DNA of 64,000 nt, from the NCBI GenBank assembly GCA_003140895.1, contig PLLH01000012.1:3661-67660 (forward strand), read 5' to 3'. A program made the position numbers and the translations under genes. Numbering within the stretch: position 1 is the first letter of the stretch; each line of letters begins with the position of its first letter. Source of the DNA: Elusimicrobiota bacterium (GTDB taxonomy: Bacteria > Elusimicrobiota > Elusimicrobia > F11). The notes under the pieces are model-generated. The model ran no database searches. It saw only the letters and a program-made list of their open reading frames with translations, and was not told the DNA's origin. Of the stretch, positions 46,908-64,000 are shown in pieces.

Positions 46908-46967
46908 GTGCTGAAATCTATCAAAGTCGGAGCCGGTTTTAAAAGTCTTGTGAAGATATTTCTAATT

Positions 46968-47045
46968 CCCCTCCATGTCTCACAATGGAGAGCTTGCCCG
47001 CCACGGCGAGCGAGCCCGCCGTGGCGGGGGCTAGGGGAGGTTTCC
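46968..47045. repeat. GC-rich hairpin repeat element copy 1 (CCCCTCCAyG..ACArTGGAG + 12-bp GC hairpin insert + GGGGCTAGGGGAGGTTTCC)
   Basis: Read directly. A second copy lies at 48091-48132, on the other side of rsgA. Confidence 0.4.
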
Positions 47046-47066
47046 TTATGTTGATATAATCGGGGC

Positions 47067-48080
47067 ATGAGTGAAATCCAGACAGTCAAAGCACGGGTCA
47101 CGGCCGTTTTCAGAGACAAATGCCTTCTTCAATTTTCCGATCAAGAGCGAACAGCGGAGGTGACAGGACGTTTTCGTTTCGAGGCAGAGGAGTGGTCTGA
47201 CTTCCCAGCGGTGGGAGATTGGGTACTGGCCTCCATCGATGGACCCGATGTTGCCCTTATTCATTCCATCTTGCCCCGGACATCGGTCCTCTCACGCAAA
47301 GTGGCGGGATCAACAACAGAGGAACAAATATTAGCGGCCAATGTGGACCTCGCCTTCCTGATCACGGCGTTTGATGGTGATTTTAATCTCCGGCGGCTCG
47401 AACGTTTCCTGGCGTTGATCAAGGAATCGGGTGTCGAGCCCGTCATTTTATTGAACAAGTCGGACTTAGCAAACAGTGCCGACGACCGGTTTGACGAGGC
47501 GTCCCGCATCGCGAATGGCGCTCCGGTTTATCGGGTTTCCACGATCACCGGCGAAGGCTTTGATGCTATTCTGTCCCACTTACAAAATTTGGCAACGGGA
47601 ACCTTCCTTGGAAGCTCGGGAGTGGGAAAATCAACCATCTTAAACCGGCTTCTTGGGAAAGAAGTCCAAGCGACACAACCGATTCGACTCTCCGATTCTC
47701 ACGGGCGTCACACGACCACCTCCCGCCAAATGTTCGCTCTTCCCAGCGGTGGATTTGTGATTGATTCGCCAGGGATTCGAGAAATACAGCTCTGGGCGGA
47801 TTCGTCCGTTCTCCCTCAAGTCTTCACCGATATTGCTCAGCTGGCGGAGCGGTGCCGTTTTCGAGACTGCCGCCATCAGACTGAGGCAGAATGCGCGGTC
47901 ATCCAAGCGCTGGGAACCGGAGAACTCCCCAAAGGCCGATGGGAAGGGTATATTAAGTTGCAGAAAGAACTGGCCTATTTAAAACGGAAACAGAATCCGC
48001 AGGATCGCGCCAATGTAAAGCGGCGGTGGAAAAAAATTCACAGCCAGTCGCGCGACATCATTAAGCGGAAGCGCGGCTGA
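47067..48080 (+). CDS. rsgA: ribosome small-subunit-dependent GTPase A
   Basis: 337 aa. OB-fold N-terminus. Circularly permuted GTPase (GSSGVGKSTILNRLLG). C-terminal zinc knuckle CRFRDCRHQTEAEC. Confidence 0.9.
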   Translation: MSEIQTVKARVTAVFRDKCLLQFSDQERTAEVTGRFRFEAEEWSDFPAVGDWVLASIDGPDVALIHSILPRTSVLSRKVAGSTTEEQILAANVDLAFLITAFDGDFNLRRLERFLALIKESGVEPVILLNKSDLANSADDRFDEASRIANGAPVYRVSTITGEGFDAILSHLQNLATGTFLGSSGVGKSTILNRLLGKEVQATQPIRLSDSHGRHTTTSRQMFALPSGGFVIDSPGIREIQLWADSSVLPQVFTDIAQLAERCRFRDCRHQTEAECAVIQALGTGELPKGRWEGYIKLQKELAYLKRKQNPQDRANVKRRWKKIHSQSRDIIKRKRG

Positions 48081-48090
48081 AAATTCTTTC

Positions 48091-48132
48091 CCCCTCCACG
48101 TTGTACAGTGGAGGGGCTAGGGGAGGTTACCT
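48091..48132. repeat. GC-rich hairpin repeat element copy 2 (CCCCTCCAC-gttgtacag-GTGGAGGGG followed by CTAGGGGAGGTTACC)
   Basis: Perfect 9-bp stem followed by the same 15-19-nt tail as copy 1, immediately after the rsgA stop. May double as a terminator (no U-tract). Confidence 0.4.
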
Positions 48133-48182
48133 TCATCGGGCAGGATCACTCGAATTGCTTTTAAAATTGCCAACGGAGAAAT

Positions 48183-48410
48183 ATGACTTTAATTGAAGTG
48201 GCCCGCATTTATACGGATCTAGTCAATGCTGAAAATCAGATTCCGGAGAGTGAATCTGTGGCGAAAGATGAGGTCAATGCGCTTAGGACAAAGTACCATC
48301 AACTACTAATGGACAAAATGCGGGAAGAGGGCATTCAATTTTCCGACCGGTTTGATGCGATGAACAAAGCTTTCGAACTCGTAAAAAATGAGGATTCGAT
48401 TCGAAGCTAG
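48183..48410 (+). CDS. hypothetical small protein (75 aa)
   Basis: ORF only. Acidic helical protein with no recognisable family. May be non-coding. Confidence 0.3.
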   Translation: MTLIEVARIYTDLVNAENQIPESESVAKDEVNALRTKYHQLLMDKMREEGIQFSDRFDAMNKAFELVKNEDSIRS

Positions 48411-48449
48411 AGTTCATTTCTCGCACATAGATCCAGATTCCTTCGTTTT

Positions 48450-49373
48450 TTGGTATGTTCACTCACTGAAATGAGCTCAATTCGCTACGACAAATTACCG
48501 ACCGAACAAAACAATCCAGCGACGCGCCGTATTGATCAACTGTCCACCCTCCGCGCCCTCCGCCTTATTAATAAAGAAGACGCTAAAGTAGCGAAGGCTG
48601 TTTCGTCTCAAATTCGCCCCATGGGAAAAGCGGTTCGGATGATTGTGGCTTCCCTTCGAAACGGCGGCCATCTCTTTTTCATCGGCGCCGGCACCAGCGG
48701 TCGCCTCGGCGTCCTGGAAGCCGCGGAATGCCCCCCCACTTTCAACACGCCACCCTCTCTCATTCGAGCGTTTATGGCCGGCGGAAAACCTTCGGTTTTC
48801 AAATCCAAAGAAGGAGCCGAAGATAGAGGTATGGATTCGGCCCGGCTCATTCGGAAAAACGTGAAACGAAATGACGTGGTCATCGGAATTGCCGCGAGCG
48901 GCGTCACGTCCTTCGTGAAAGAAGGACTTCGAGTCGCAAAGAAAAGAGGTGCCAAAACAATTTTGGTGACGTGCAACCCGCGTCAAACGTCACATCTCGC
49001 AGACGTGGTAATCGCCCCGCGTGTTGGGCCGGAAGTGATCGCGGGTTCAACCCGTCTTAAAGCCGCCACCGCGACCAAGCTGGTGCTCAACTCTCTCACC
49101 GTCACGTCGATGATTCAACTGGGGAAAGTCTATGGAAACCGGATGGTGGACCTTCAACCCAAATCCAACAAATTAAAAGCGCGCGCACTTCGCCTGATCC
49201 AATTGTTGGCGAAAGTCTCTCCCAAGAAAGCCGAAACTCTCTATATCCAATCCGGGAAAAACGCGAAAACAGCCATTCTCATGGGGAAAAAGAACCTCAA
49301 GCAGTCCGACGCCGTCCGGCTTCTCAAGAAAACAGCGGGCCATCTTCACGCCGCTCTCACGCTAAAACGATGA
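48450..49373 (+). CDS. murQ: N-acetylmuramic acid 6-phosphate etherase (SIS domain)
   Basis: N-terminus LPTEQNNPATRRIDQLSTLRALRLINKEDAKVAKAV and SIS motif FFIGAGTSGRLGVLEAAECPPTF. An alternative start at 48471 is possible. Confidence 0.85.
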   Translation: MVCSLTEMSSIRYDKLPTEQNNPATRRIDQLSTLRALRLINKEDAKVAKAVSSQIRPMGKAVRMIVASLRNGGHLFFIGAGTSGRLGVLEAAECPPTFNTPPSLIRAFMAGGKPSVFKSKEGAEDRGMDSARLIRKNVKRNDVVIGIAASGVTSFVKEGLRVAKKRGAKTILVTCNPRQTSHLADVVIAPRVGPEVIAGSTRLKAATATKLVLNSLTVTSMIQLGKVYGNRMVDLQPKSNKLKARALRLIQLLAKVSPKKAETLYIQSGKNAKTAILMGKKNLKQSDAVRLLKKTAGHLHAALTLKR

Positions 49374-50476
49374 CAACACTCGCCCTGGGCCTTATGTCGG
49401 GCACATCGGCGGATGGCGTCTCAGCGGCGCTCGGCGCATTTGGCGCGCACTCCTTCAAATTGATCGGACATCTCACAGATCCATACCCTCCTCAAATCCG
49501 CGAACGGATTCGACGAGCCAACACGCTTTCGGCCGCAGAACTGTCATCTCTGAACGTTGAAATAGGCGAAGCTTTCGCAAAAGCAGCCATACACCTTTTC
49601 AAGAAGACAAAGATTAAGGCCACGAAGGTGGCCTGTGTGGGGTCGCATGGACAGACGATTTATCATGGGCCGAGAGACAAACATCCCAACACACTTCAAA
49701 TCGGAGAGCCGGCCGTGATCGCCGAAAAAACAGGAATCCCCGTGATTTCCCATTTCCGTCAGAAGGATATTGCTGCTGGAGGCGAAGGGGCGCCGCTCAT
49801 TCCGTTTTTTGATCACTTCTTTTTTGGAAACGGTTCCGTCCGGGCGTTTCAAAATATTGGCGGAATTTCAAACGTGACGGTCGTCGGGAAAGGGATTAAA
49901 TCCCCCATCGCTTTTGACAACGGCCCGGGAAATGGCCTGATGGATGCGGCTGTCCGCCTTATCACGAGAAGGAAAGAGAGTCTTGACGCGCAGGGAAAAC
50001 GGGCCGAACGAGGAAGCATCGACCTCGTGATCCTTCACGCCATGATGAAAACGCCCTACTTTAAAAAAGCGCCGCCCAAATCAACGGGACTCGAACTCTT
50101 CGGCGAAAACTTCGTCAAACAATATTTCGGACGAAGGCTAGTTTCACATCCCAATGACGTTTTGGCCACGCTCAACTTTTTCACGGCGCTCACGATTCAG
50201 GAAAGTTATAAATCCTTTGTTTTCCCCAAACACCACGTGTCGGAGATCGTTGTCTCGGGAGGAGGCATCCACAATACGATGTTGATGAAAAACCTCGCCT
50301 CCCTTTTCGCGCCAATTCCGGTGAAGCGTATTGACGCGTTTGGAATCCCCTCTCAAGCGAAAGAACCGCTGACCTTCGCTTTCTTCGGGCTTCGCGCTTT
50401 TCAAAACAAAATCAACCACATCCCCGCCTGCACGGGCGCCAAACGGGCGTGTGTTCTAGGGAGCCTGACACGATGA
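49370..50476 (+). CDS. anmK: anhydro-N-acetylmuramic acid kinase
   Basis: MTTLALGLMSGTSADGVSAAL N-terminus typical of AnmK. ATGA overlap with murQ stop. Confidence 0.85.
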   Translation: MTTLALGLMSGTSADGVSAALGAFGAHSFKLIGHLTDPYPPQIRERIRRANTLSAAELSSLNVEIGEAFAKAAIHLFKKTKIKATKVACVGSHGQTIYHGPRDKHPNTLQIGEPAVIAEKTGIPVISHFRQKDIAAGGEGAPLIPFFDHFFFGNGSVRAFQNIGGISNVTVVGKGIKSPIAFDNGPGNGLMDAAVRLITRRKESLDAQGKRAERGSIDLVILHAMMKTPYFKKAPPKSTGLELFGENFVKQYFGRRLVSHPNDVLATLNFFTALTIQESYKSFVFPKHHVSEIVVSGGGIHNTMLMKNLASLFAPIPVKRIDAFGIPSQAKEPLTFAFFGLRAFQNKINHIPACTGAKRACVLGSLTR

Positions 50477-51978
50477 TCGAAAAATGGTTTTTAGGATTTT
50501 CCAATCTCACGATGGTGGATTATTCCGTCTTGTTTGCTTCCCTCGCCATCATGATCCTGATCGGGTTCTACGCCGGACGAAAAGAAGATTCCACCCACGA
50601 TTTTTTTCTTGGGGGCCGCGGAATTCCCAGATGGGCGGCCACGCTTTCTTTTGTGGCCACCGAAATAAGCGCGGTGACCATCATCGCCGTTCCGGCCACC
50701 GCTTACAAAGAGAACTGGGCGTATCTGCAACTCTTCATCGGCTCCTTCGCTTCCCGTTTTGTTCTGGCCGCGATTTTTATCCCCGCGTTCTACCAATACA
50801 ACTGCACCACCATTTATGAATATCTGAAACACCGCTTTGGCGCAGCCACCCAATACACCGCCACCTGTTTTTTCTTCGTGACGCGGCTCTTGGGTTCCGG
50901 CGTGCGGCTCACCGTGGCCTCCCTGGCCGTTTCCCTGCTTCTCGGCTGGGATTTAAGACCCACCATCTTTCTTTTTGTCCTGATCGGCATCCTCTATATC
51001 GGCTACGGCGGCATTAAGGCCATCGTCTGGACCAACGTTTGGCAAACCACCACCTTCCTCATCGGCGGGATCGGCACCATTTGGTTTCTCTCAACCGTCG
51101 TGGACGGCGGCTTGATCGGCATTTTCAAAACGGCGGCTCATGCCGGGAAACTCACGGTGTTCGACTGGGGCCCGTCCATCCGAGAACCCGGGTTTTGGAC
51201 CGCGATCCGGACCAATCCCAACATCTGGTGGCTGGCGATCCTGAATGGCTTTTTCGGTTCCATGGCCGCCTACGGCACGGATCATGAACTCATGCAGCGG
51301 CTTCTCACCGTCGAAACACGAAAGAAAAGCCAACAAGCCACCTTGGCCACACCTCTAGCGGGGTTTGGCGTGATGATTTTGTTCCTTATTATTGGTGCGG
51401 GGCTCTACGCCTTTTACAGCCAGCATCCATCCATTCCCCTCCCGCAAAAATTGGATGACATCTACCCGTTTTTCGCCAACACGCAGATGCCAGGTCTCTT
51501 ACGTGGCATCATTCTTTCCATGGTGATCATGGCGAGCATCGATTCCCCGCTCGGATCTCTCACCGCTTCCTTCGTCACGGATATCTATAAACCGCTCATT
51601 CAAAAAAACCGCGACGAGCGGCATTACCTGCGCGTGTCTCGAATGATGGTCGTGGTCTTCGGCGTGATTCTGGGCCTCCTGGCGTACATGTTCAGTTATT
51701 TGGAAGGTTTTCTCTGGTGGGCGTTTAAAATCGGCGGCGTCACCTTCGGCTCGCTCCTCGGCGTGTTCCTCCTCGGCTTCTTGACCAAAAAACACAGCAA
51801 CATCGTCAATATTTTCTCCATGATTTTTTGGGCCGTTGTCAACGCCGTCCTCCTTATTCTCACGGAGAAAAAAATCTTCGTGGTCGGCTGGACCTGGCTC
51901 ATTCTCCTCGGCACCTTCGGAACCTTTATGACGGGCTATCTCCTGGGGCCGCTCTTGGAGAAACCAAAAAAAGAATGA
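50473..51978 (+). CDS. sodium:solute symporter family (SSS) transporter, probably for MurNAc/GlcNAc-type peptidoglycan fragments
   Basis: ~13 predicted TM helices and SSS-family sequence character. Embedded between anmK and namZ with ATGA overlaps on both sides. Substrate is inferred from context only. Confidence 0.75.
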   Translation: MIEKWFLGFSNLTMVDYSVLFASLAIMILIGFYAGRKEDSTHDFFLGGRGIPRWAATLSFVATEISAVTIIAVPATAYKENWAYLQLFIGSFASRFVLAAIFIPAFYQYNCTTIYEYLKHRFGAATQYTATCFFFVTRLLGSGVRLTVASLAVSLLLGWDLRPTIFLFVLIGILYIGYGGIKAIVWTNVWQTTTFLIGGIGTIWFLSTVVDGGLIGIFKTAAHAGKLTVFDWGPSIREPGFWTAIRTNPNIWWLAILNGFFGSMAAYGTDHELMQRLLTVETRKKSQQATLATPLAGFGVMILFLIIGAGLYAFYSQHPSIPLPQKLDDIYPFFANTQMPGLLRGIILSMVIMASIDSPLGSLTASFVTDIYKPLIQKNRDERHYLRVSRMMVVVFGVILGLLAYMFSYLEGFLWWAFKIGGVTFGSLLGVFLLGFLTKKHSNIVNIFSMIFWAVVNAVLLILTEKKIFVVGWTWLILLGTFGTFMTGYLLGPLLEKPKKE

Positions 51979-53180
51979 AAAAAAAGACGCTCTTTTTGAT
52001 CGCCGCCTTCACAACCGCCTGTCTCATTCAAATCCAGGCGAGCGCCGCCGTTCTCTGCGGCATTGATGTTCTTGAGCGGGACCGTTTCGCCCTTCTCTCA
52101 GGCGCTCACGTGGCGTTGATCACCAACCAAACCGGCGTCGACCGGAAGGGCGTGAGCACCGTTGATCTGCTGTCAAAAGCGCCCGGCGTCGCCCTCCTTT
52201 GTATTTTGACTCCCGAACATGGATTCCGAGGCGTGGCGAAGCACGGCGAAGTCGTTCAAAACTCAATCGACGAAAAGACCGGCGTCCCGATTTACAGCCT
52301 CTACGGAAAAACAACCCGCCCAACGGTAGACATGCTGCAAGACGTGGATACCATCGTGTTTGACATTCAAGACAGCGGAACCCGCTTCTACACCTACATC
52401 GCCACGATGGGACAAGCCCTTGAAATCGCGGCGGAGCGGAAGCTTCGCTTCATTGTCCTGGACAGACCGAACCCTATTCGGGGGGATATTTTGGAAGGAG
52501 ACGTGTTGGATCCGGAGGTAAAACGCCTCACCGGTTATTTCCCCATCCCGACGCGGCATGGATTCACCGTCGGAGAACTGGCGGAGTGGATGAACAAAAC
52601 CCAAAATCTTCAGGCGCCCCTCACGGTGGTTAAAATGGAAGGATGGAAAAGGTCCCTCTGGTTCAACCAAACGGGGCTCGCCTGGATTCGCCCCTCTCCC
52701 AATCTTCCGACCCCCACGTCGGCTCTTCTTTACTCTGGTGTCGGATGCTTTGAAGCGACCAATGTGTCGGTGGGTCGCGGCACCAAAACGCCGTTTGAAC
52801 TCTTCGGAGCCCCCTGGATGGATGGGAAAGCGCTCGCCAAAGCGCTGCGGGACAAAAAAATTCCCGGTCTCTCGGTGACTCCCGTTCAATTCACTCCAAA
52901 AACCGACCTCTACCAAAACGAGCGTTGCGAAGGGGTTCGAATTCGCGTGACAAATCGGGATCAGGCGCGACCCTTCCTCCTCTTTGTCCATTCCTTCCTG
53001 ACGCTCTCGAAAGACAACCCAGCCTTCAAACCCAACTGGGAGGAGGTGAGAGTCGTTACGGGATCCAACCGGGTGAAGGACGCCGTTGATGGAAAGTGGC
53101 CTCTCGAGGAGCTGCTGCGCGTTCTGGGTCAACGGCTGGATGAATTCAGGAACCAAGTCAAATCTTTTTATCTTTACTAA
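51975..53180 (+). CDS. namZ: DUF1343-family exo-beta-N-acetylmuramidase (NamZ-like), secreted
   Basis: Signal peptide MKKKTLFLIAAFTTACL. DUF1343 motifs VALITNQTGVD, IVFDIQDSGTRFYTYIATM. Confidence 0.7.
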   Translation: MKKKTLFLIAAFTTACLIQIQASAAVLCGIDVLERDRFALLSGAHVALITNQTGVDRKGVSTVDLLSKAPGVALLCILTPEHGFRGVAKHGEVVQNSIDEKTGVPIYSLYGKTTRPTVDMLQDVDTIVFDIQDSGTRFYTYIATMGQALEIAAERKLRFIVLDRPNPIRGDILEGDVLDPEVKRLTGYFPIPTRHGFTVGELAEWMNKTQNLQAPLTVVKMEGWKRSLWFNQTGLAWIRPSPNLPTPTSALLYSGVGCFEATNVSVGRGTKTPFELFGAPWMDGKALAKALRDKKIPGLSVTPVQFTPKTDLYQNERCEGVRIRVTNRDQARPFLLFVHSFLTLSKDNPAFKPNWEEVRVVTGSNRVKDAVDGKWPLEELLRVLGQRLDEFRNQVKSFYLY

Positions 53181-55020: not shown

Positions 55021-55222
55021 TTTTTCAAAAGACGTCCGGAAGCTGCTTCTGGAACACTGGACGTTTGGCGAGATTGAGTCCCGGTTATCGGACCCGGCTT
55101 ATTTTTTTGAACAGGTGGTACTTCCGCGGCTGGCGTATCTTCGTCGAAACGGCAAAGACGTCCCCACGCTTCGCCTTCAGCAATCTCCCAACAACCCGCT
55201 GCGCGTGATTCTGATCCCTTAG
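55007..55222 (+). CDS. hypothetical small protein (GTG start, 71 aa)
   Basis: AAGGAAA Shine-Dalgarno 4 nt before GTG 55007. No family assignment. Overlaps the MauE stop. Confidence 0.25.
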   Translation: MQLSDFSKDVRKLLLEHWTFGEIESRLSDPAYFFEQVVLPRLAYLRRNGKDVPTLRLQQSPNNPLRVILIP

Positions 55223-58200
55223 GCGTTAAGACGGACCAGAGACGACGTCTTGATCAACATCTCAAGACCGGCGCCTTTGAACGAGGAGAAGAAACGATCC
55301 GTTTCCGCGGTGTTGAGTAGAATTTTAAGCAAAGCCCGCGCCAGGCTCAATTCATCCTTCACGTTGAAATTCCGAATATCAATCTGATTTTTCCACGCCG
55401 CGGGGAATTCCGAAATCGAGATCAGCCCGGCCAACGTTTCCGGAACGAACAGGCTGTACGGCTGGCTCAGTTTCTGCGCCGTCGTCTCCGGGCGACCCAA
55501 CCGCCGGCTCGTCTCTTCCACCAGAGTCTGCCCCACATCGTTCGCTTTGAGATCGATCGAGATAAGGTTCACGGAATCCAGCTTGAGAGCCGCCCATTGA
55601 TCCCGCATCCGTTCATAGAGCGATTGTTCAACAAAAATAAATTTGGCTCTGGACGCCACTTTCTCCTGACCAATCATCTGAACCGCTTGGATGGATTTCG
55701 CCGCGTTTCGAAGCTCTTCTTCCGTCTGAACCACCAGCACAAGAGGCCCGATCGCATTTAAATCCTTCGTTTTGGCCTCGATCGCGACAAAGAGCGCGGT
55801 CATCGCGCTCAAGAATTTCTCCGGTATGCTGGCGCGCGGAACGGCCCGAAACGCCTCAGCGCCTGAAATTTCCCCTGTCCGGTCGACGTGGTTCCACGCA
55901 TCTTCGGGCTCAACAACGGAATCGTCATCTAACGAGGCGGGCCTCTCGACCACTTTTTCCGACGGAGTTTTCTTGAAGCTGAGAGCTCTTCGGAGCAGGA
56001 TCGCCCCATACGTCAGGAACCCAACCACGGCAAAGAAAACGACAGAGGAACTCAGGGGAGACCCTCTGGAAGGTCCGCTCATTGAATCAAAAGACATTCC
56101 AAATGATGTTTCCGCCATCATGATCCACAACAAACCTCCCAGGACCAAAATATGCGCCTTCAACAACGTGTCTCTTGTCTTCACAACCAATCCGTGGACA
56201 ATGTCCATAAATTCGTGCCACCGCGTCCGGCTTTCTCGATCGAAATAATGCGCCGGGTTGTCATACGTTTCCAAGGCTTCTTCCATATCTCTCAAGTACT
56301 TTGATCCTTTGAGAGGCGCCCGCGTATCGCGCGCGACCCAAACCCCTTGGATTAACGCTTCAATAACGGACGTCATGTCATAATTAATGGTATCTCGATT
56401 TTCTTGTTTTTCCTTAAACCACCGGTAGAGCGTCCGGAATTGCCGCGAATTGGCCCACGTGTATAAACGCATCGTGGTGAATCCGAAGATGAAGATAATG
56501 CTGAGCGCGATGACCGTGATCCCCAAGGATTGCCCGATCTGAAGGTAGTTAACGGTCATGTTGAAATCCAAGACGCGGGCGGTCACCAACGCCGGGGTCG
56601 GGTTGAGAGCCAGCCAGACCAGACCCACCATTCCCAAAATGGCGCTGCGGCGGATGGTTGGCAGCGTGAAAGGGTCCTTCAAGAAAAGCGGAGCGTGTTT
56701 AACATAAGACGTTCGAACCATTTTTCTCACCGAGGCCCGGCTCTGCCGGAAAGGACCGCCGATGTGAAGCATCCGCGACAAAATGGCCATGGACGTAAAG
56801 AACGGCACCAAACCGATAAGCGCTCCCGTGACAATCGCCTGCGTCCCGGACAAGGGGAGACTCACGCCCAAACTGGCCAATAGTCCAATGCCAACCCACA
56901 TAACGAGAACCCAGAAATTATGGAGACGTTCCCTGGGAGTCGCCCCGTTGGTGACGATAAAGGTCCCGGGGAAAAGGATGAAGAAAAGAAAAAAGCTGGC
57001 CCCCAATAAAATGGGCGCCACGATCACATCGTTCGAAAAAAGGCCCAAACCAAGCGACATCCCAATCATAATGAGAGCGGCCAACCCCACGCCAATCATT
57101 TTGGGAGTCCACCGCCGCCAACCTAGAAGCGATTGTTTCTTCGGTCCTTTTTGATGGAGATAAATATACGACCCAATCACCAAACCCGTCGTAAACACCA
57201 ACATCGGATACAACATCAACGCGTTCAGCAAGTCCAACCGAGAAATAGCATAGAGGTTGACGAGCGTCGTGATGACCCCCGTCCCGAACATCCAACGGAA
57301 TATGTCATAGGGACCGTTTGTTTTCAGCATCCCTGGAAGAACGTTGGGGTTGTAATCTTCCATTTTGGCTCCACCGGACAAATTGAAGATAAAGCCATAC
57401 CGGACATCTTTGATGAGCGTTTCCATCACCCCGTAGAATTCAATGAACGTGAGGGGCGCAAAAAGAATCATGTCCCTAAATCTCTGGGAGAGCCAAATAG
57501 AAAGACCGGCCCAGAAACCGGCCCGGTCGATATACGACGCCAACCCATTCAACGTCAGAACCTGGTTGGCCACAATACCGATGACCCAGAACAAGAGGAG
57601 AATGCCGGCGAACGGAGTGTAGCCGGTCATAATGAGAAGAGGAGTGAAGGTGACATTGATCATGCCCAAGGGAGCCGTGAGATAATAGCGGGCGCGATTT
57701 CTCTGCATCTCCCTCATAAAAATGGAATCCGACCCGTAATCCCGTAATCGCTGGGCCAGGATATCGCGTCCTTTTTGTCCGGGGTCACCGCCGCCCGACC
57801 AGCGCGGACGCGCCAACACCATCTCCATCATCGTCGAGTGTTCCCGCAATTTGTAGTGCATGCCTCGAGAGGTGAGAAGGCGAGGCGTGATTCCCATGCT
57901 CTTCATCCCTTCGGCGGAAAATTGAATTTGGAGAAAATCTTCACTCACGTGAGGCAGATTCAGAAACCCGTGAATGCCTCCGAACGATCGATCGAGGGAC
58001 GAATTCCCCACATTAAACCGATAGGGAAACGCGGGATCCGAAAAAGCCACAAAGAGATCGTTGTAGGGCAACGCCACCAAATTCCCCCATCCAATCGCCA
58101 CCATTTCTCCAACGGTTCCCCCCAAATAATTCACCAACGCGTCTTCAAACATTGAAAAACCATATTCTCCCATATCGGATTGGGATCCGACGGGGAACGC

Positions 58201-61200
58201 GATATTGGGCGTGGTCCGAATCGGGAATATGCCGGCGATGGTCGGATCCGTCAGAAGCGAATTAATATCGTCGACGGTTTCTTCCAACGTAAAGCTCTGC
58301 GCGTTCCGATCCAAGACATACGTCTTTTTTAAATTTCTGAAGGAACCGGAATTACCGTTTTGAGCGCCTGATTTACACGCGTTAAAGGTCCAGTTATGGT
58401 CCACTTCGGCTGAGATGCCCGTCGTTATCGTGATAAATCGCGCGGCCGCCAAACGCTCGTCCATCTCCTTTTTCTTGGCTCCATCGAGATCAAACAGTTG
58501 ACTCGGGGCCTTATCATCCGGATTGTTTTCGGATGGTTTCGTTGGATCGTATTTATTGGATTGGATATAAAACTTGGGAGCCTGGGTGAGCCCCCGCGCC
58601 CGTAACGCATGCGCCAATTGAATCGCATACACAAGAGTGTCCCGTTGGCTTCCTCGAATCGGAATCCGCGTCACCATCAACCGCTCAAGGCGATACCCCA
58701 ATCGGAGGAGTTCCGCTTCTCTCGGATCGTTCACTCGAACGATGAGATTCAGGTTCCGCCCATTTTCATCGGTGGCCTGATCCAATTCCATTTGAACAGG
58801 AGTCAGCGGTTCTCCCAAAATGGCGATGGCCTCTTCTCCAAAAATAGTTCGCTGGTGTTCGTTCTCCGTTTGAAACAGAAAACCCAACGCCTCTTCAACT
58901 TCCGCATCCGTCACCGGGTGCTTTCCGGTCACATCCAGGATGTCCTGAGGAGAATGAAAAGCGTTTGGTTTGATGACGGTTCTCCAGAGAGTCATATAGT
59001 AGAGAAGTGGATTGTTGACACTCTTCAACGCTTGGCTGGACATGGGCTGGCCCCCGGTGATCCAAATGCCGAACGCGGCGGGTTGACTATCAACCGCCGC
59101 GTGATTATTGCTCCGCCTAACAAGATAAGCGATGAAGCGCACCGCGCGGACCAACACCGCGAGAGAAATGAGTCCGAAAAAGAGCCCTTGGGCATAAGAG
59201 GTTCCGAACCACATGGGAACATAAAAAGCCGCAATACCCGCCCCCAGAATTCCCGTCGAGAACGCAGGATCGCCCGCCGACATGGCCGTGAGCATCAGCA
59301 ACATTTGAATGATGACTCGAATCCCCATGACGGCCGCCCATAAGGCGAAACTGGACGAATTGGACCCCCCAATCAAATAAAGAATGCCTTCCAGAACAGC
59401 CAGGCCGACGCCGATCTCCAACAGGTTTCTAAATTTTCCAATCTTGGACGTGATCGCCGTGAGCCCGATCACCAACACGAAAATGGCGTAATGAGCCAGG
59501 TAAAGCGCTGAGAAAAGGGCAAACCCGCCGATCACCATTCCTCCCACGGGACGATAAATGTCCAAGAAGAAAGAAAGGGCGAAGAAGACCAATGTGACGA
59601 GAGGAAACACTTTCAGATACCGTTTGTAGGGTTCTGGATTTCTACTGGGGTCGGCCAATCGAAACCGCGTGAGCTCATAGATAAATAATGAGATCGCCCC
59701 GGCAATCACCAGGGCGCCGATCGCGTGAGTGGAGAAATTGAACCCCGGTTTCAAGAAATCCTGGTATCCCCACGCCGAAACGAGATACCCTTCAAAAAAC
59801 GGAACCACATACGACGTCACCCACCACGCGAACGCGAGGAAAAGCGCGTATTGCATCGCCATGAAAGCCACGGCTCTGGGATGTCCAAAAATCGCCGTGG
59901 TCCGGAATTGATAGAAACGCATCGTGCCAAGGAATGAGATCCTGTTTGTGAGAAGCGCCAGGATCTCCATAAACATAATCCCCGCCACAACGGCGGGCAG
60001 AAGCAGGCTCGTGATCTCAAGGGACGTCACGCTAAAGTACCCGAACACGCCCGGAATAAACATCAGCGTCCCGAGGCACCCGATCGCCAAACTGAGCATC
60101 AACGCCGCCCGGCCCGTGTTAGAGAGGACGAGACGCTGTATTCGTCCGAAGGTGGTTTTATCCTTCAAAAAGTTTCCTTCGAAATAAAACCAATAGGAGA
60201 CGCAAAGCGCCAGAAGTCCGATCAAGAGCCCAGTCGCGCCCAAACCGCTCCACCACGAGGGCACGTTGAAAAAGTTGTTCGATAACAACTGGAGCGGGGA
60301 CAAGGAGTCACGGGCGTATATAAAGGCAAACGTCACGGCAAAAAGGATGAGGCGGGGAGCGAAACTAACGATCTCCGTCCAATACGGGTGGATGGAAATA
60401 AGGTTGTGCCGATCCGCGTGGGCCTCGATTTTGGCCCCAAATTCCTCCGGCTGAATGGTGTCCGCTTCCAAGAGGCCCAACTCGCCCAGAACCATCTCGA
60501 AAGCGGCTCGATCGTCCGCTGATAAGACTTTTGTCCCATCCTCCATCAGCGGCCGGGCCAGGATTTTCCGCAGTTTTTCAGCCATGTGAGAAAAATACAA
60601 TTCTGTTTCGGCATAGATGTGCGAGTTCACATTCGGGCGAGAAATCTGATCTCTGAACCACCAACCCGCGCGGCGTAGATAACGGTCCAACCGCATCAGT
60701 TCGGGCTTGTCCACTCCCGGATTCAACGCGTTGGGATCCAGCATGATGGGAGCGGCCGCAGCGGCCAACTCCTCCTGTGTCCATCCCGGATGAAGCCGTC
60801 TGTAATACTCCAACGTGAGAATATGAATGTACGCCAAACCCGGAAGGAACGGGATTTCACCGGTCCCGACGTGCTGATTCGCCGCCAAAGCCGGATCTGC
60901 CGAGACATATTCATTGGGAACGGAGGCGCCAAAGATATCCGTGGGGACGCCGTCCCGAACCACCTGATAGGTTCCCAGAACCCGCTTGTAGTACCGGTCT
61001 GTCGCCGCCTCAATCAAGGCATCGTCATAAATGCGTTGTCCGTTCTCTAAGGCACGCCATTTTCGAAGTCGCAAAGCCGCATACCCTTCAAAACGACGAG
61101 CGCCGATGCCGGAAGTGATAATTTGTGAAGCCGGGTAAAGCCACGCCGCCGAGAGAGAAACCCCCAGCCCGGTCAGGCCAAATCCATAGAGAAGAATGGG

Positions 61201-64000
61201 AATGGGCAGAAGAACAAGGAAGGCGATAGCGACATCCAACAAGGCCTGATGAGGCGAATAACTCCGGTTGCTGTTCCAGAACCATGTGACCCCTTTCCAA
61301 ATTAATACCGCCAGGGAGAAGAGGACCCCCAGGATAATCAGGGCTTGACCGCTCACGAAAGAGAGGGGATCCCGAATCATGATTGAAAACCGATCCGGCT
61401 GCGATGCCTTTGACAGATCGAGATCAGGCACTTTAATATTCTCTTGAAGATCTTTTTTGGCGCCGGTTCCAGAAACGTCGCTCGTGAAACGCAAGGCTTT
61501 CACCGTCGACGTCATCGACACGCCGAAATCGGATTTGTCCAGTTTCGGAAGAATGACCCGCCCATCCCCCGTCGGAACGCCCAAGTCCACATCCAACCCG
61601 GTGGGATCAACGCCGCTGGCTTCCCTGAGAAGTCCGGTCTTGTTGTCCGCGAAGTCGCGAAGGCTGTTCAACGCGAAATTCACCCCATTGGGATAGTGGA
61701 TCCGCTGGGATAATTGGCCAAAGCGGACCGAAAGCTCGGACGAGAACAATTTTCCCTCAGTGCGCCCCATTGTTTCGGGAGAGAAATCCAAGCCGGAGGC
61801 GCCATTCCCTTGTCCGTAAAAGACTTTGAGATAGTTTTCCATCCACTGACGCACGGTGGATTCCTTCTCGCCCAACAAGAGGGCCGCCTCGGCGCCGGCC
61901 AAAGAGGACTCCAGCGGCGTCCACCGGCTCGGGATGAGAACATAGGGTTGGTTTTTCCCTTCCGTTCCGGTCGGTTTCACGCCGGTGATCCAAAGTTGTT
62001 GCCTGAAATGAGCCGGGGTAAATCCCTCTCCCTTTTTCACATGGGGAAGAATATTGCCTTTAAACCAACGCTCGAGATTCCGGCGGCTAACAAGAATTTC
62101 TGTTTGAAAATCGCCGAGCGAAGTCGGAGGCTGCCCGTGGGTTAATACCGTTTCCCACTCCCGTAGCAGAATCAGGGCTTCTTTGTTGGTGCCAACGCGG
62201 TAATTGTCCGGCTCCGGCGTCAACGTCACGCCCATTTCCCGAAGGAGATAGAGATTTCGAGGTTTGTATTCGGAGAACCCTCCGCTGACCGTCAGAATTC
62301 CCGTCAAAGATTCCACATCTTGCGGGGTTTTAGCTAGCCGCATGACCAGCGCGTCGATGGCCCCCCTCTGAATGACCTCAACCTGCCGAGGAGTCTCGGC
62401 CGATTGGCGGCGCGCCGTTTCCAACGTTTTTTCGATAAAGTTCAGATCATCCGCCGACAATTCTCTCTCTTTTTGATCGCTCCGAAGATTGTCCCAGACC
62501 TCCACCAACCGTTCCGCCCGCTCTTTCGACGCCCCTTTAAACCAAAAGAAATTATTGTCCGGCAAAAACTCCAGACTTCTCTGCGTCAATCGGACCGCCA
62601 ACTCCCAATATTTTTTATCGCCGGTTTTCTCAGCCAGCGCCAACGCAGCCCGCGCCACCGCCACGTTGCTTTCCGCCGTTGGGATGGCGATACCCGGCTT
62701 CCCGTATTCATCGCTGAATTGGCGACGGGCCCCGGAACCGATGTCATAAGCGGAAAGGACGTATTGTTCTCCTCCCGTCGTGGCTCTGTCGTAAAAGCCC
62801 ATCATCTCTTCGGCAAGAGAAACCTCGCCCATATCAAGAAGACCCCGGATGATCTCAGAGACGTTGCTTGATTGGGGAAAAGCGGATCGGCGCGTCCCCA
62901 TATCGGTTTCCGGCAATCGAGTGGAATCTCCCATGGACGATTTAATAGAGGCGATCAAGGTCTCCTGATCCAAATTCCACGCAGGACCCTTGTTTCGATC
63001 AAACTCGGGAACGGAGCGATCTTTCCACGACGGGATTAAATTGAGCGGCGTCCCTTCCACAAGAGCTTTAACCGCATAGGGATTCAACTGTTCCAAAACA
63101 AAACGCTGCGGATTATTTTCCCCACCAAACCTGCTGTATTCTTTCTCTAGAGAGGGATTAAGAGTGCGGAGAACGCCATTAACAATGTTGGCATTGATGC
63201 GAGGGAATTTTGCCTTCGGATCAAACAATCCCATCGGAAAATACAATGTGGCCGGGTTGTTCGTGTCCTCCGTGTCATTTGGGAAGAGAACGATGGCCAC
63301 CGCTTTATCCACGTTCGCGACGTTCACTTGGAGCCGGCCGCCGCTCACTTGATGGGTTGTGATCACGCGACTCAACCATCCTCCGAAATAGGATTCCACA
63401 TATTCGGGAATCTGGAGGTAAGGAGAAATAGCGTGGGCGAGATAAAACCGAACGCAATCGTACGTTTCTCCGTTCTTTTGCCAATACGTCACGGACACGG
63501 GGAGGCCGTTATCAAACACCGTAATTTTGGTTTGATCTCCTTTCCCGCGGGTCACCTGGACCACCCCATTCCCCAAATCCACAACCTGTGATTTAAGATC
63601 GGGAATTTTGACGTGCAGCGTTGCTTTCGGGAAAAATTCTTTCTGAATTTTGTCAGTCATCTTCCAATCGTTTTCGTTCTCAGATTGTCCCAACCGTTCA
63701 ACCGAGCTCACTTCCACGTTCCCTTTCGCTTGGACTTCAAACCGGAGGGACGAAAGGTCTAGGCCGGTCCCCCTCAGCTTCTCGACTGGAATAATAAAGG
63801 AACGGGTCGCGTTGTCGATAGGGAACCTGAGCGAATGCCCCTGCATGGGACGAACATCGACAAAGCGGACCTCTCGACGCCCATCCGCCCGAAGCCGTTC
63901 TTCCACCAACGGATCATTAAAAAATGGAGACCAGAATTTAAATCCATTGGAATTAGAGAAGTCATTGTCCACAACGACGGACCGGCCTTTGGCGTCCGTT
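55219..64000 (-). CDS. giant polytopic membrane protein, >2,917 aa, N-terminus off-window (function unknown; synthase/exporter-like alternation of TM blocks and large soluble domains)
   Basis: Uninterrupted reverse-strand frame from 55219 to the window edge. The frame is still open upstream of the GTG at 63972 (TDAKGRSVVVDNDF...). TM blocks at roughly aa 870-960, 1200-1625 (~12 helices), 2100-2510 (~10 helices) and 2605-2660, separated by soluble domains of 240-475 aa. Confidence 0.75.
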   Translation of the reverse strand, partial: TDAKGRSVVVDNDFSNSNGFKFWSPFFNDPLVEERLRADGRREVRFVDVRPMQGHSLRFPIDNATRSFIIPVEKLRGTGLDLSSLRFEVQAKGNVEVSSVERLGQSENENDWKMTDKIQKEFFPKATLHVKIPDLKSQVVDLGNGVVQVTRGKGDQTKITVFDNGLPVSVTYWQKNGETYDCVRFYLAHAISPYLQIPEYVESYFGGWLSRVITTHQVSGGRLQVNVANVDKAVAIVLFPNDTEDTNNPATLYFPMGLFDPKAKFPRINANIVNGVLRTLNPSLEKEYSRFGGENNPQRFVLEQLNPYAVKALVEGTPLNLIPSWKDRSVPEFDRNKGPAWNLDQETLIASIKSSMGDSTRLPETDMGTRRSAFPQSSNVSEIIRGLLDMGEVSLAEEMMGFYDRATTGGEQYVLSAYDIGSGARRQFSDEYGKPGIAIPTAESNVAVARAALALAEKTGDKKYWELAVRLTQRSLEFLPDNNFFWFKGASKERAERLVEVWDNLRSDQKERELSADDLNFIEKTLETARRQSAETPRQVEVIQRGAIDALVMRLAKTPQDVESLTGILTVSGGFSEYKPRNLYLLREMGVTLTPEPDNYRVGTNKEALILLREWETVLTHGQPPTSLGDFQTEILVSRRNLERWFKGNILPHVKKGEGFTPAHFRQQLWITGVKPTGTEGKNQPYVLIPSRWTPLESSLAGAEAALLLGEKESTVRQWMENYLKVFYGQGNGASGLDFSPETMGRTEGKLFSSELSVRFGQLSQRIHYPNGVNFALNSLRDFADNKTGLLREASGVDPTGLDVDLGVPTGDGRVILPKLDKSDFGVSMTSTVKALRFTSDVSGTGAKKDLQENIKVPDLDLSKASQPDRFSIMIRDPLSFVSGQALIILGVLFSLAVLIWKGVTWFWNSNRSYSPHQALLDVAIAFLVLLPIPILLYGFGLTGLGVSLSAAWLYPASQIITSGIGARRFEGYAALRLRKWRALENGQRIYDDALIEAATDRYYKRVLGTYQVVRDGVPTDIFGASVPNEYVSADPALAANQHVGTGEIPFLPGLAYIHILTLEYYRRLHPGWTQEELAAAAAPIMLDPNALNPGVDKPELMRLDRYLRRAGWWFRDQISRPNVNSHIYAETELYFSHMAEKLRKILARPLMEDGTKVLSADDRAAFEMVLGELGLLEADTIQPEEFGAKIEAHADRHNLISIHPYWTEIVSFAPRLILFAVTFAFIYARDSLSPLQLLSNNFFNVPSWWSGLGATGLLIGLLALCVSYWFYFEGNFLKDKTTFGRIQRLVLSNTGRAALMLSLAIGCLGTLMFIPGVFGYFSVTSLEITSLLLPAVVAGIMFMEILALLTNRISFLGTMRFYQFRTTAIFGHPRAVAFMAMQYALFLAFAWWVTSYVVPFFEGYLVSAWGYQDFLKPGFNFSTHAIGALVIAGAISLFIYELTRFRLADPSRNPEPYKRYLKVFPLVTLVFFALSFFLDIYRPVGGMVIGGFALFSALYLAHYAIFVLVIGLTAITSKIGKFRNLLEIGVGLAVLEGILYLIGGSNSSSFALWAAVMGIRVIIQMLLMLTAMSAGDPAFSTGILGAGIAAFYVPMWFGTSYAQGLFFGLISLAVLVRAVRFIAYLVRRSNNHAAVDSQPAAFGIWITGGQPMSSQALKSVNNPLLYYMTLWRTVIKPNAFHSPQDILDVTGKHPVTDAEVEEALGFLFQTENEHQRTIFGEEAIAILGEPLTPVQMELDQATDENGRNLNLIVRVNDPREAELLRLGYRLERLMVTRIPIRGSQRDTLVYAIQLAHALRARGLTQAPKFYIQSNKYDPTKPSENNPDDKAPSQLFDLDGAKKKEMDERLAAARFITITTGISAEVDHNWTFNACKSGAQNGNSGSFRNLKKTYVLDRNAQSFTLEETVDDINSLLTDPTIAGIFPIRTTPNIAFPVGSQSDMGEYGFSMFEDALVNYLGGTVGEMVAIGWGNLVALPYNDLFVAFSDPAFPYRFNVGNSSLDRSFGGIHGFLNLPHVSEDFLQIQFSAEGMKSMGITPRLLTSRGMHYKLREHSTMMEMVLARPRWSGGGDPGQKGRDILAQRLRDYGSDSIFMREMQRNRARYYLTAPLGMINVTFTPLLIMTGYTPFAGILLLFWVIGIVANQVLTLNGLASYIDRAGFWAGLSIWLSQRFRDMILFAPLTFIEFYGVMETLIKDVRYGFIFNLSGGAKMEDYNPNVLPGMLKTNGPYDIFRWMFGTGVITTLVNLYAISRLDLLNALMLYPMLVFTTGLVIGSYIYLHQKGPKKQSLLGWRRWTPKMIGVGLAALIMIGMSLGLGLFSNDVIVAPILLGASFFLFFILFPGTFIVTNGATPRERLHNFWVLVMWVGIGLLASLGVSLPLSGTQAIVTGALIGLVPFFTSMAILSRMLHIGGPFRQSRASVRKMVRTSYVKHAPLFLKDPFTLPTIRRSAILGMVGLVWLALNPTPALVTARVLDFNMTVNYLQIGQSLGITVIALSIIFIFGFTTMRLYTWANSRQFRTLYRWFKEKQENRDTINYDMTSVIEALIQGVWVARDTRAPLKGSKYLRDMEEALETYDNPAHYFDRESRTRWHEFMDIVHGLVVKTRDTLLKAHILVLGGLLWIMMAETSFGMSFDSMSGPSRGSPLSSSVVFFAVVGFLTYGAILLRRALSFKKTPSEKVVERPASLDDDSVVEPEDAWNHVDRTGEISGAEAFRAVPRASIPEKFLSAMTALFVAIEAKTKDLNAIGPLVLVVQTEEELRNAAKSIQAVQMIGQEKVASRAKFIFVEQSLYERMRDQWAALKLDSVNLISIDLKANDVGQTLVEETSRRLGRPETTAQKLSQPYSLFVPETLAGLISISEFPAAWKNQIDIRNFNVKDELSLARALLKILLNTAETDRFFSSFKGAGLEMLIKTSSLVRLNA

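What the first reader, a model, noticed from the sequence alone, without database searches (positions are those of the whole stretch)
55219..64000. Second giant ORF (>8.7 kb, >2,917 aa, truncated by the window) encoding a ~30-helix polytopic protein of unknown function
The open frame continues past the annotated GTG at 63972 to the window edge, so the true N-terminus lies upstream. The in-window portion has at least 870 aa of N-terminal soluble region, then TM blocks at aa ~870-960, ~1200-1625 and ~2100-2510 plus a 2-helix hairpin at ~2605-2660. Soluble domains of ~240 aa, ~475 aa and ~260 aa are interleaved. The alternation of large cytoplasmic or periplasmic domains with 10-12-helix bundles resembles processive polysaccharide synthase/translocase or GT-C-like machines. 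I cannot see canonical D,D,D,QxxRW or DxD motifs by eye. Two giant ORFs make up ~32% of this window, a hallmark of lineages enriched in giant genes.
Basis: seen in the sequence. Interest (0 to 1): 0.8.

Follow-up and report, generated by a model that had tools for sequence, protein, structure and literature searches.

The report
Giant membrane sugar-polymer synthase gene
The open frame is real and is the last 2,926 codons of a 6,419-codon gene whose protein contains a very divergent cellulose-synthase-like enzyme domain set between bundles of membrane helices, plus a sugar-cutting-type domain predicted to face outward, so it most likely makes, exports and trims an unknown envelope polysaccharide; no standard protein-family library matches it.

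Summary
The minus-strand frame 55219-64000 is open to the window edge (chance of no stop about 10^-56). A metagenome contig whose DNA is identical to the window across this ORF shows the complete gene: 6,419 codons, with an in-frame stop and a ribosome-binding site just before the ATG.

The family has at least 208 clusters, many of 3,300-7,700 aa. It occurs in Verrucomicrobiota, Omnitrophota and Planctomycetota MAGs and in this probably Elusimicrobiota genome. In the closest relatives the two halves are adjacent genes.

Best reading: a new, sequence-orphan family of cellulose-synthase-like polysaccharide synthase-exporters. The product is unknown. The GT-C and GT48 ideas are not supported.

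The parts
55219..64000 (-). In-window part of the giant gene. It covers residues 3494-6419 of the 6,419-aa protein, with the stop codon at 55219-55221. Window-protein residue n = P0154 residue minus 3493.
   Evidence: Open frame. 100% identity to P0001 and P0154. ORF DNA identical to L036.
63019..63999 (-). Soluble region of unknown fold (window-protein 1-327). Homologous to the upstream partner protein of the closest relatives.
   Evidence: BLASTP to L046-L048 upstream proteins. No family hit.
61477..63018 (-). (alpha/alpha)6 six-hairpin glycosidase-like domain (window-protein 328-841), predicted to face the periplasm.
61135..61356 (-). Three membrane helices (window-protein 882-955) linking the outward-facing domain to the cytoplasmic part. 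In the closest relatives the gene is split here.
   Evidence: Hydropathy. Alignment with the N-termini of the stand-alone synthases. Gene pairs.
60373..61134 (-). Cytoplasmic domain of about 254 aa of unknown function (window-protein 956-1209), with a conserved 'D-R-(Y/F)-x-K-R-V-L-G' stretch.
   Evidence: Arg/Lys-rich flank and parity with the GT domain. Conserved in relatives. No PDB or Pfam match.
59128..60372 (-). Block of 12 membrane helices (window-protein 1210-1624).
   Evidence: Hydropathy, with Arg/Lys-rich loops alternating with Arg/Lys-poor loops.
57682..59127 (-). Cytoplasmic GT-A glycosyltransferase domain (window-protein 1625-2106), the candidate catalytic module.
58546..58557 (-). 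N-K-Y-D motif at the end of a beta-strand. Candidate nucleotide-binding element, equivalent to either 'YNE' or 'DDG' of GT2.
   Evidence: N 97% conserved. The mapping is ambiguous between my topological reading and hhalign. Coordinates checked.
58372..58374 (-). Invariant Lys (core K234), aligned with the Lys of the 'KAGN' motif of BcsA.
   Evidence: 100% conserved in 95 relatives. hhalign column. Coordinates checked.
58303..58311 (-). D-R-N motif at the position of DxD (core D255-N257).
   Evidence: D 100%, R 93%, N 85%. Follows strand 250-254 in the model. Aligned to the DCD of BcsA. Compare the DAN motif of FKS1 (PMC12715860).
58081..58092 (-). G-W-G-N motif (core 328-331). By order along the chain (my reading, not an alignment) it sits about where BcsA has 'FFCGS'.
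   Evidence: G-W 100% conserved. Position after strand 332-334 region of the model. The hhalign alignment does not pair it with FFCGS.
57937..57945 (-). S-E-D motif (core 377-379), aligned with TED of BcsA. D379 is the candidate catalytic base.
   Evidence: S 98%, E 100%, D 100% in 103 relatives. hhalign column.
57799..57813 (-). A-R-P-R-W motif (core 421-425), aligned with QxxRW.
   Evidence: R and W 100%, A 80%. hhalign column.
56470..57681 (-). Interface and membrane helices after the GT domain (window-protein 2107-2510). Includes the F-N-L-S-G loop at 57373-57387, which aligns with the FxVTxK gating loop of BcsA.
   Evidence: Hydropathy. Helices in the model, and low pLDDT at core 558-586 as expected for a mobile loop. 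F 100%, S 97%, G 91%. hhalign.
55993..56169 (-). Terminal two-helix membrane hairpin (window-protein 2611-2669).
   Evidence: Hydropathy.
55222..55992 (-). C-terminal soluble domain of 257 aa, unknown function, not conserved in the family.
   Evidence: No relatives cover it. No Pfam, NCBIfam or PDB hit.

Best explanation
The ORF is the C-terminal 46% of one 6,419-aa inner-membrane protein. Its core is a cellulose-synthase-like, membrane-integrated glycosyltransferase.

Proposed mechanism: a cytoplasmic GT-A domain takes a nucleotide sugar and adds it to the end of a growing glycan. The glycan is threaded through a channel formed by the flanking membrane helices, directly beneath the active site, as in BcsA, hyaluronan synthase and chitin synthase.

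The catalytic signature is present in an unusual form. It comprises an invariant Lys, D-R-N in place of DxD, G-W-G-N, S-E-D in place of TED, A-x-x-R-W in place of QxxRW, and an F-x-L-S-G loop where BcsA has its gating loop. D-x-N also occurs in fungal FKS1, which works without metal. The conserved Arg here may take over the role of the metal ion.

On the other side of the membrane, the same polypeptide carries an (alpha/alpha)6 six-hairpin glycosidase-like domain. This domain would trim, release or transfer the emerging polymer.

What is shown: the ORF, its full length, the two folds, the residue conservation, the family and its gene-pair or fused arrangement. What is inferred: activity, processivity, the translocation channel, the topology, metal independence, and the identity of donor and product (unknown).

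For: (2) Signature residues are conserved across 93-117 representatives that are at most 50% identical to one another. K234, D255, R286, G328-W329, E378-D379, R410, R424-W425 and F563 are 100%. S377 is 98%, K408 97%, R256 93% and N257 85%.

(3) The hhalign alignment to a 9-sequence BcsA profile is collinear over 542 columns. It places K234 on KAGN, D255 on DxD, D276-P277 on 'DP..Q.P', SED on TED, RW on QxxRW, and FNLSG on FxVTxK.

(4) Architecture. The GT domain sits between a 12-helix block and an 8-10-helix block. Arg/Lys-rich loops alternate with Arg/Lys-poor loops, which places the GT domain in the cytoplasm.

(6) Linkage of the two halves. In three close relatives, a protein of about 3,000 aa that carries the six-hairpin domain and a synthase of about 1,700 aa are adjacent same-strand genes. 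They are fused here and in Verrucomicrobiota.

(7) One relative (P0050) carries NTP_transferase and fucose-pyrophosphorylase domains after the core. These are sugar-nucleotide-forming modules.
Against: - There is no significant sequence link to any glycosyltransferase family. Pfam and NCBIfam give nothing. PDB profile searches give nothing.
- hhalign versus BcsA is marginal: score 21.7-23.4, P 0.05-0.2, against 15.2-15.7 for a reversed control.
- The motif mapping therefore rests on a predicted structure whose coordinates I could not superpose residue by residue.
- The first nucleotide-binding Asp is not securely placed.
- DxD and the Gln of QxxRW are missing.
- No export partners of the BcsB/BcsC type lie nearby. 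The downstream genes are convergent and concern MurNAc recycling.
- Topology comes from hydropathy and the positive-inside rule only.
- Nothing shows that the protein is expressed, or made full length.
Confidence: 0.66

Rival explanations
1. It is a membrane GT-A enzyme but not a polymer synthase-exporter. It makes a single transfer, for example to a polyprenyl phosphate or another lipid or protein acceptor, as do DPMS, GtrB or ArnC. The many helices would serve another purpose.
Confidence: 0.15
2. It is specifically a bacterial relative of the eukaryotic GT48 beta-1,3-glucan synthases (FKS1 / callose synthase).
For: By eye, D-R-N resembles the metal-independent D-A-N of FKS1, and S-E-D resembles its essential E-D (PMC12715860). 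The spacing from K234 to D255 (21 residues) equals that from K1082 to D1102 in FKS1. Both are very large polytopic proteins with the GT domain inserted between helix blocks.
Confidence: 0.08
3. The GT-like domain is a catalytically dead scaffold, and the protein is a transporter or structural envelope protein.
For: The canonical DxD and the Gln of QxxRW are missing. There is no sequence-level family match.
Against: Every residue at a position expected to be catalytic or substrate-binding is 97-100% conserved across about 100 relatives whose overall identity is only 20-30%. That pattern indicates purifying selection on an active site. FKS1 shows that D-x-N enzymes can be active.
Confidence: 0.05
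4. It is a GT-C-type or other helix-bundle glycosyltransferase/translocase.
For: Many membrane helices alternate with large loops.
Against: The conserved core is a soluble alpha/beta GT-A domain with a nucleotide-binding sheet. No GT-C structure appears among the fold matches.
Confidence: 0.02

Closest known systems
Bacterial cellulose synthase BcsA (GT2), and with it CesA/CslF6, hyaluronan synthase and chitin synthase
   Different: No detectable sequence-family membership, and profile-profile comparison is only marginal. D-R-N replaces DxD and A-x-x-R-W replaces QxxRW. There are 12 helices before the GT domain where BcsA has 4. No PilZ domain was found. No BcsB/BcsC-type partners are nearby. 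The module is embedded in a 6,419-aa polypeptide.
[quoted passage not shown]
   Same: Very large polytopic enzyme with a cellulose-synthase-like core. It has a D-x-N motif (DAN) at the DxD position and an essential ED pair, and its catalysis is metal-independent (PMC12715860).
   Different: Not among the top structural matches. No sequence similarity was detected. There is no evidence of regulation by a Rho-type GTPase.
Cyclic beta-1,2-glucan synthase Cgs (GT84 + (alpha/alpha)6 domains, about 2,800 aa)
   Different: The domain order differs. From my own knowledge, the (alpha/alpha)6 domains of Cgs are cytoplasmic, whereas here the six-hairpin domain is predicted to lie on the opposite side of the membrane. 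No sequence similarity.
Six-hairpin glycosidases: MmpH, GH15 glucoamylase-like, and GH8 including BcsZ-type endoglucanases
   Different: No Pfam hit to any GH family. The catalytic residues are not identified; near-invariant D153 and D472 of the domain are only candidates. Large low-confidence insertions are present.
Giant multi-domain membrane proteins of Omnitrophota ('Archaeovorins' and related)
   Same: Giant genes in related lineages, with many membrane helices, carbohydrate-active domains and most sequence unannotated (10.1101/2023.11.21.568195 and 10.64898/2026.06.07.730766).
   Different: Term searches of both papers found GT1, GT5 and starch-synthase domains but no occurrence of 'cellulose synthase'. 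The first paper also describes SecA-like domains. This protein gave no Pfam hit at all, so none of those domains was detected in it. It is also smaller than the proteins of 10,000 aa or more that they focus on.

Membership tests
GT2 processive synthases (BcsA/CesA/Chs/HAS) | Sequence match to a GT2 or cellulose/chitin synthase family model | tested here: not met
   No Pfam-A or NCBIfam hit at E up to 1 (up to 10 for the four sequences of alignment A1), for this protein and three relatives. PDB sequence and profile searches find no synthase. hhalign to a BcsA profile gives P 0.05-0.2.
GT2 processive synthases (BcsA/CesA/Chs/HAS) | GT-A fold followed by interface and membrane helices, structurally superposable on known synthases | tested here: met
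GT2 processive synthases (BcsA/CesA/Chs/HAS) | D, DxD, (T)ED, QxxRW signature | tested here: inconclusive
   Variant forms occur at collinear positions: D-R-N, S-E-D and A-x-x-R-W, each 85-100% conserved. The second Asp of DxD and the Gln are absent. The first Asp is not securely placed. No residue-level superposition was possible.
GT2 processive synthases (BcsA/CesA/Chs/HAS) | Catalytic domain on the cytoplasmic face between membrane segments | tested here: met
   Twelve helices lie between two Arg/Lys-rich soluble regions, and loop charge alternates. This is a prediction only.
GT2 processive synthases (BcsA/CesA/Chs/HAS) | Processive polymerization coupled to translocation | not testable with these tools
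   Requires biochemistry or an experimental structure with bound polymer.
GT48 (FKS1 / callose synthase) | Match to Glucan_synthase/FKS1 family models, or to FKS1 structures | tested here: not met
GT48 (FKS1 / callose synthase) | D-A-N motif in place of DxD, plus an essential E-D pair | tested here: inconclusive
   D-R-N and E-D are present and conserved. Equivalence to the FKS1 residues rests on comparison with the review text and on spacing, not on an alignment.
GT-C glycosyltransferases | Catalysis by a helix-bundle domain with an extracytoplasmic-loop acidic motif and a lipid-linked donor; no Rossmann-like catalytic domain | tested here: not met
   The conserved core is a soluble alpha/beta GT-A domain. 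No GT-C structure appears among the matches.
Six-hairpin (alpha/alpha)6 glycosidases (GH15/GH8/GH76-like) | (alpha/alpha)6 barrel fold | tested here: met
Six-hairpin (alpha/alpha)6 glycosidases (GH15/GH8/GH76-like) | Family-level sequence match and identified catalytic carboxylates | tested here: not met
   No Pfam hit. The PDB profile search finds only designed helical repeat proteins. The conserved acidic residues are candidates only.
Cyclic beta-1,2-glucan synthase (Cgs, GT84/GH94) | GT84 and GH94 sequence domains | tested here: not met

The most novel reading that the evidence does not exclude
This protein is a founding example of an undescribed glycosyltransferase family. It would be a probably metal-independent (D-R-N) processive synthase-exporter, coupled either in one polypeptide or as an adjacent gene pair to an outward-facing six-hairpin glycanase. 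The family would make a so far unknown envelope or extracellular polysaccharide in Verrucomicrobiota, Omnitrophota, Planctomycetota and Elusimicrobiota. It would also assign a function to part of the unannotated giant-gene content of these phyla. A further, less likely extension (about 0.08) is that the family is the bacterial sister of eukaryotic GT48 glucan synthases.
Probability: 0.4. Interest if true: 0.75.

Novelty: new variant of a known kind. Interest (0 to 1): 0.62.

Why it matters
Membrane-integrated polysaccharide synthases make cellulose, chitin, hyaluronan and fungal glucan. The characterised bacterial ones I am aware of belong to families that standard HMMs recognise, such as GT2 and GT84.

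This case is different. A family of at least 208 sequence clusters, many of 3,300-7,700 aa, has the same fold and a strictly conserved but non-canonical active site. None of the family models or solved-structure sequences searched here match it, and five close relatives scanned directly gave no glycosyltransferase-family hit either.

If the family is active, three things follow.
- It points to an unknown envelope polymer in poorly studied phyla.
- It offers bacterial examples of the D-x-N variant so far described for fungal FKS1, which is an antifungal drug target.
- It gives a concrete, testable function to a class of giant genes usually left as 'hypothetical'.

The roughly 1,740-aa stand-alone homologues make the hypothesis practical to test.

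Tried and rejected
- GT48 idea. On first reading, the stretch 'VLDRNAQ ... HVSEDF ... GQKGRD ... RARYYLTAPLG' looked like FKS1 as I recall its sequence. The fold searches did not bring up FKS1, so I dropped it as a family assignment and kept it only as a motif analogy.
- Sequence routes to a known family all failed: Pfam, NCBIfam, phmmer and hmmsearch against the PDB, and hhalign of the family profile against E. coli BcsA alone. hhalign against a 9-sequence BcsA profile is only marginally above a reversed control.
- hhalign with a single BcsA sequence put D-R-N on the 'DDG' motif. I rejected that mapping. The profile alignment, the strand order of the model and the Lys-to-Asp spacing all place D-R-N at the DxD position.
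The 4-sequence alignment worked but did not recover the source genome.
I rebuilt the alignment from substrings of the protein hits.
- A second word-indexed homology search with the profile returned only 6 proteins, so I obtained no family-wide statistics on domain co-occurrence.
- Exact look-ups of P0001 and ten window proteins gave no organism names. P0001 itself is not on record as a called gene.
- I first assumed an Omnitrophota origin from the named relatives of the giant protein. A housekeeping oxidoreductase points to Elusimicrobiota instead.
- The upstream 2,768-aa gene is not conserved next to the synthase in the 35 related loci scanned, so I do not count it as part of the system.
- Profile searches for the N-terminal module and for the 254-aa cytoplasmic domain found nothing solid.

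Full report

Translating window 55219-63999 on the minus strand gives 2,926 codons followed by a stop, with no internal stop. The frame is still open at the window edge, beyond the GTG at 63972 that the ORF lister reports. From the base composition, the probability of no stop in 2,926 codons is 10^-55.6. GC by codon position is 54/41.5/63%. The other five frames of the region are open for at most 245 codons.

In window-protein numbering:
- soluble 1-881
- helices 882-951
- soluble 952-1209
- twelve helices 1210-1624
- soluble 1625-2106
- helices 2107-2510
- a hairpin at 2611-2669
- a 257-aa soluble C-terminus

I count 26-27 hydrophobic helices rather than about 30.

**2. The full gene**

A homology search found the identical protein as a 3,663-aa NCBI product (P0001). 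Its 90% cluster also holds a 6,419-aa ENA product (P0154) that is 100% identical over all 3,663 residues.

The contig that encodes P0154 (L036, from a 167.6-kb record) overlaps the window. There are 3 mismatches in 18.8 kb, and none is in this ORF. On L036 the gene is one uninterrupted frame of 6,419 codons. An in-frame TAA and a GGTGAGGA ribosome-binding site immediately precede its ATG. The window therefore holds residues 3494-6419. I could not tell why NCBI calls an internal start.

The protein begins with a hydrophobic signal-anchor-like segment.

**3. No routine assignment**

Pfam-A and NCBIfam give no hit for the in-window protein. Pfam also gives none for the upstream 2,756 residues. 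phmmer against all PDB sequences gives nothing.

The word-indexed search found only three distant relatives, of 4,289-4,611 aa, one of them labelled Verrucomicrobiales. They share two regions with this protein.

A profile of the better-conserved region was searched against 1.84 billion cluster representatives. It found 208 proteins at E <= 1e-3 and 134 at E <= 1e-30. Many are giant, from 3,300 to 7,739 aa. Those relatives for which Pfam data were seen show no glycosyltransferase-family hit.

In GTDB species representatives, 35 loci encode relatives. Most are Verrucomicrobiota (Limisphaerales, Pedosphaera). Four are Omnitrophota and one is Planctomycetia.

**4. The core domain**

I aligned the 681 residues encoded by window:57031-59073 with 31 relatives (A2) and predicted the structure. 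The result has mean pLDDT 80.9 and pTM 0.85. It shows an alpha/beta domain followed by long helices.

- Foldseek against the PDB: the top 36 hits are all membrane-integrated polymerizing synthases (chitin, hyaluronan, cellulose and cyclic glucan synthase), with E from 2.5e-6 to 1.8e-3.

No GT-C structure matches.

**5. The active site**

I tabulated key positions across 93-117 representatives that are at most 50% identical to each other. In core numbering (core r = window-protein r + 1642):
- 100% conserved: K234, D255, R286, G328-W329, E378-D379, R410, R424-W425, F563
- S377 98%, E411 98%, K408 97%, N173 97%, S566 97%
- R256 93%, N257 85%

To map these residues I fetched E. coli bcsA and eight plasmid-borne homologues and ran hhalign against the family profile. 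The comparison is statistically marginal: score 21.7-23.4 and P 0.05-0.2, against 15.2-15.7 for a reversed control. The alignment is nevertheless collinear over 542 columns. It pairs:
- K234 with the Lys of KAGN
- D255 with the first Asp of DxD
- D276-P277 with 'DP..Q.P'
- S-E-D with TED
- A-R-P-R-W with QxxRW
- Q433 with the Gln after 'RWARG'
- F-N-L-S-G with the FxVTxK gating loop

That loop lies in a low-confidence segment of the model, as expected for a mobile element. The strand order of the model agrees with this mapping: strand 221-229 then K234, and strand 250-254 then D255.

The first nucleotide-binding Asp is uncertain. It could be D176 of N-K-Y-D or an Asp near 195-197.

They are replaced by D-R-N and A-x-x-R-W. 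A D-x-N motif (DAN) together with an essential E-D pair is described for fungal FKS1, which works without metal (PMC12715860). That the conserved Arg substitutes for the metal here is my inference.

**6. The second conserved domain**

The region encoded by window:61309-63201 is conserved in the giant relatives. Its model has pLDDT 68 overall, with the barrel helices mostly 80-97.

**7. Topology (predicted only)**

The twelve helices 1210-1624 are joined by loops that alternate between Arg/Lys-rich and Arg/Lys-poor. This places both the 254-aa domain and the GT domain in the cytoplasm.

In the Verrucomicrobiota relatives, a single helix followed by an Arg-rich stretch separates the six-hairpin domain from the conserved 'AEERW...RVLG' cytoplasmic domain.

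In this protein there are three helices. The stand-alone synthases of the closest relatives begin, with a positively charged N-terminus, exactly at the second of them. Both observations place the six-hairpin domain on the outer face of the membrane.

**8. Gene-pair evidence**

In the three closest relatives (46-48% identity in the core for two of them), the system is two adjacent same-strand genes.
- The upstream product, about 2,986-3,186 aa, is homologous to residues about 1,700-4,330 of P0154. This includes the six-hairpin domain.
- The downstream product, about 1,651-1,748 aa, is homologous to residues 4,408-6,103.

Here and in Verrucomicrobiota the two are fused. This recurrent adjacency or fusion argues that the two modules work together.

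One Omnitrophota relative (P0050) carries nucleotidyltransferase and fucose-pyrophosphorylase domains after the core. That is consistent with a sugar-nucleotide-using enzyme.

**9. Context and organism**

Downstream of the gene, and convergent with it, lie rhodanese, MauE/DoxX and DUF1573 genes, followed by a MurNAc-recycling cluster. I see no functional link to the giant gene.

Upstream on L036, 75 nt away on the same strand, is a 2,768-aa gene with PEP-utilising and GlpX-type FBPase domains. Its N-terminal 460 aa are paralogous to the N-terminus of this protein. It is not found beside the synthase in the 35 related loci scanned.

A 1,223-aa 2-oxoacid oxidoreductase in the window has best named relatives (72-55% identity) that are all Elusimicrobia/Elusimicrobiota. 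The source is therefore probably an Elusimicrobiota genome. PMC12057145 names that phylum among those where giant genes are common.

Term searches of two papers on Omnitrophota giant proteins found GT1, GT5 and starch-synthase domains but no occurrence of 'cellulose synthase'. Two further literature searches found no description of this family.

**10. Verdict**

The most likely function is a processive, membrane-integrated polysaccharide synthase-exporter with an outward-facing glycanase-like partner domain. It belongs to a sequence-orphan family with a non-canonical active site.

Membership of GT2, GT48 or GT84 as sequence families is not met. Fold-level kinship with the cellulose-synthase-like enzymes is met.

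Donor, product, processivity and expression are unknown. I rate it a new variant of a known kind, interest 0.62.

Noticed in passing
window 17487-28958 (-): The other giant ORF (3,823 aa) is unrelated to this one. It has a protein-kinase domain hit at residues 3132-3329 and two weaker GHKL/HATPase_c hits at about 884-934 and 1713-1843. Most of it is unannotated.
   Followed up: partly
L036 1619-9925 (+), just outside the window, 75 nt upstream of the giant gene: A 2,768-aa protein combines a PEP-utilising-enzyme domain and a GlpX-type fructose-1,6-bisphosphatase domain. Its N-terminal ~460 aa are paralogous (25% identity, E 3e-33) to residues 45-538 of the giant synthase protein. Two neighbouring giant genes therefore share an N-terminal module but carry different enzymatic cargo.
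   Followed up: partly
L036 10133-11644 (residues 45-548 of the full protein; outside the window): The shared N-terminal module also occurs in four other giant relatives (P0142, P0073, P0113, P0059). It has invariant Q-D-x-H...E...Q, E-G and G-G-F-H motifs. Its only Pfam signal is sub-threshold, to the Tiki/ChaN family PF04187 (best E 0.0017). No PDB hit.
   Followed up: partly
L033, L034 (Omnitrophota loci); proteins P0040, P0049, P0071, P0101: In a subset of relatives the two halves of the core are in swapped order. The S-E-D / R-W / membrane-helix half comes first, and the nucleotide-binding half (N-K-Y, K, D-R-N, G-W-G-N) follows 300-400 residues later. This may be a circular permutation, or a split of the GT-A domain.
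   Followed up: no
window 44636-53180: A peptidoglycan (MurNAc / anhydro-MurNAc) recycling cluster, interrupted by an RsgA GTPase gene. It comprises a BadF/BcrA-type ATPase, GH3 (NagZ-like), a MurQ-like SIS protein, AnmK, a sodium:solute symporter and the exo-muramidase NamZ.
   Followed up: no
P0001 versus P0154 (window edge and beyond): NCBI annotates only 3,663 aa, starting at an internal Met. The DNA-identical ENA contig gives 6,419 aa with a clean start. The public annotation of this gene appears to be truncated by 2,756 residues.
   Followed up: partly
L046 1051-14956: In a 2.9-Mb contig the partner gene (2,986 aa) and the synthase gene (1,651 aa) overlap by 11 nt. This could be a real overlap or a frameshift in a single giant gene. 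I did not resolve it.
   Followed up: no
P0050 residues 1144-1618: An Omnitrophota relative, named 'L-fucokinase, partial' by NCBI, carries NTP_transferase and fucose-pyrophosphorylase domains C-terminal to the synthase core. This hints that some family members may use a GDP-sugar.
   Followed up: no
window 35234-38905 (-): A 1,223-aa fused 2-oxoacid/indolepyruvate:ferredoxin oxidoreductase (TPP_enzyme_C, POR, DUF6537). Its best named relatives are all Elusimicrobiota. I used it only as a taxonomic marker.
   Followed up: partly
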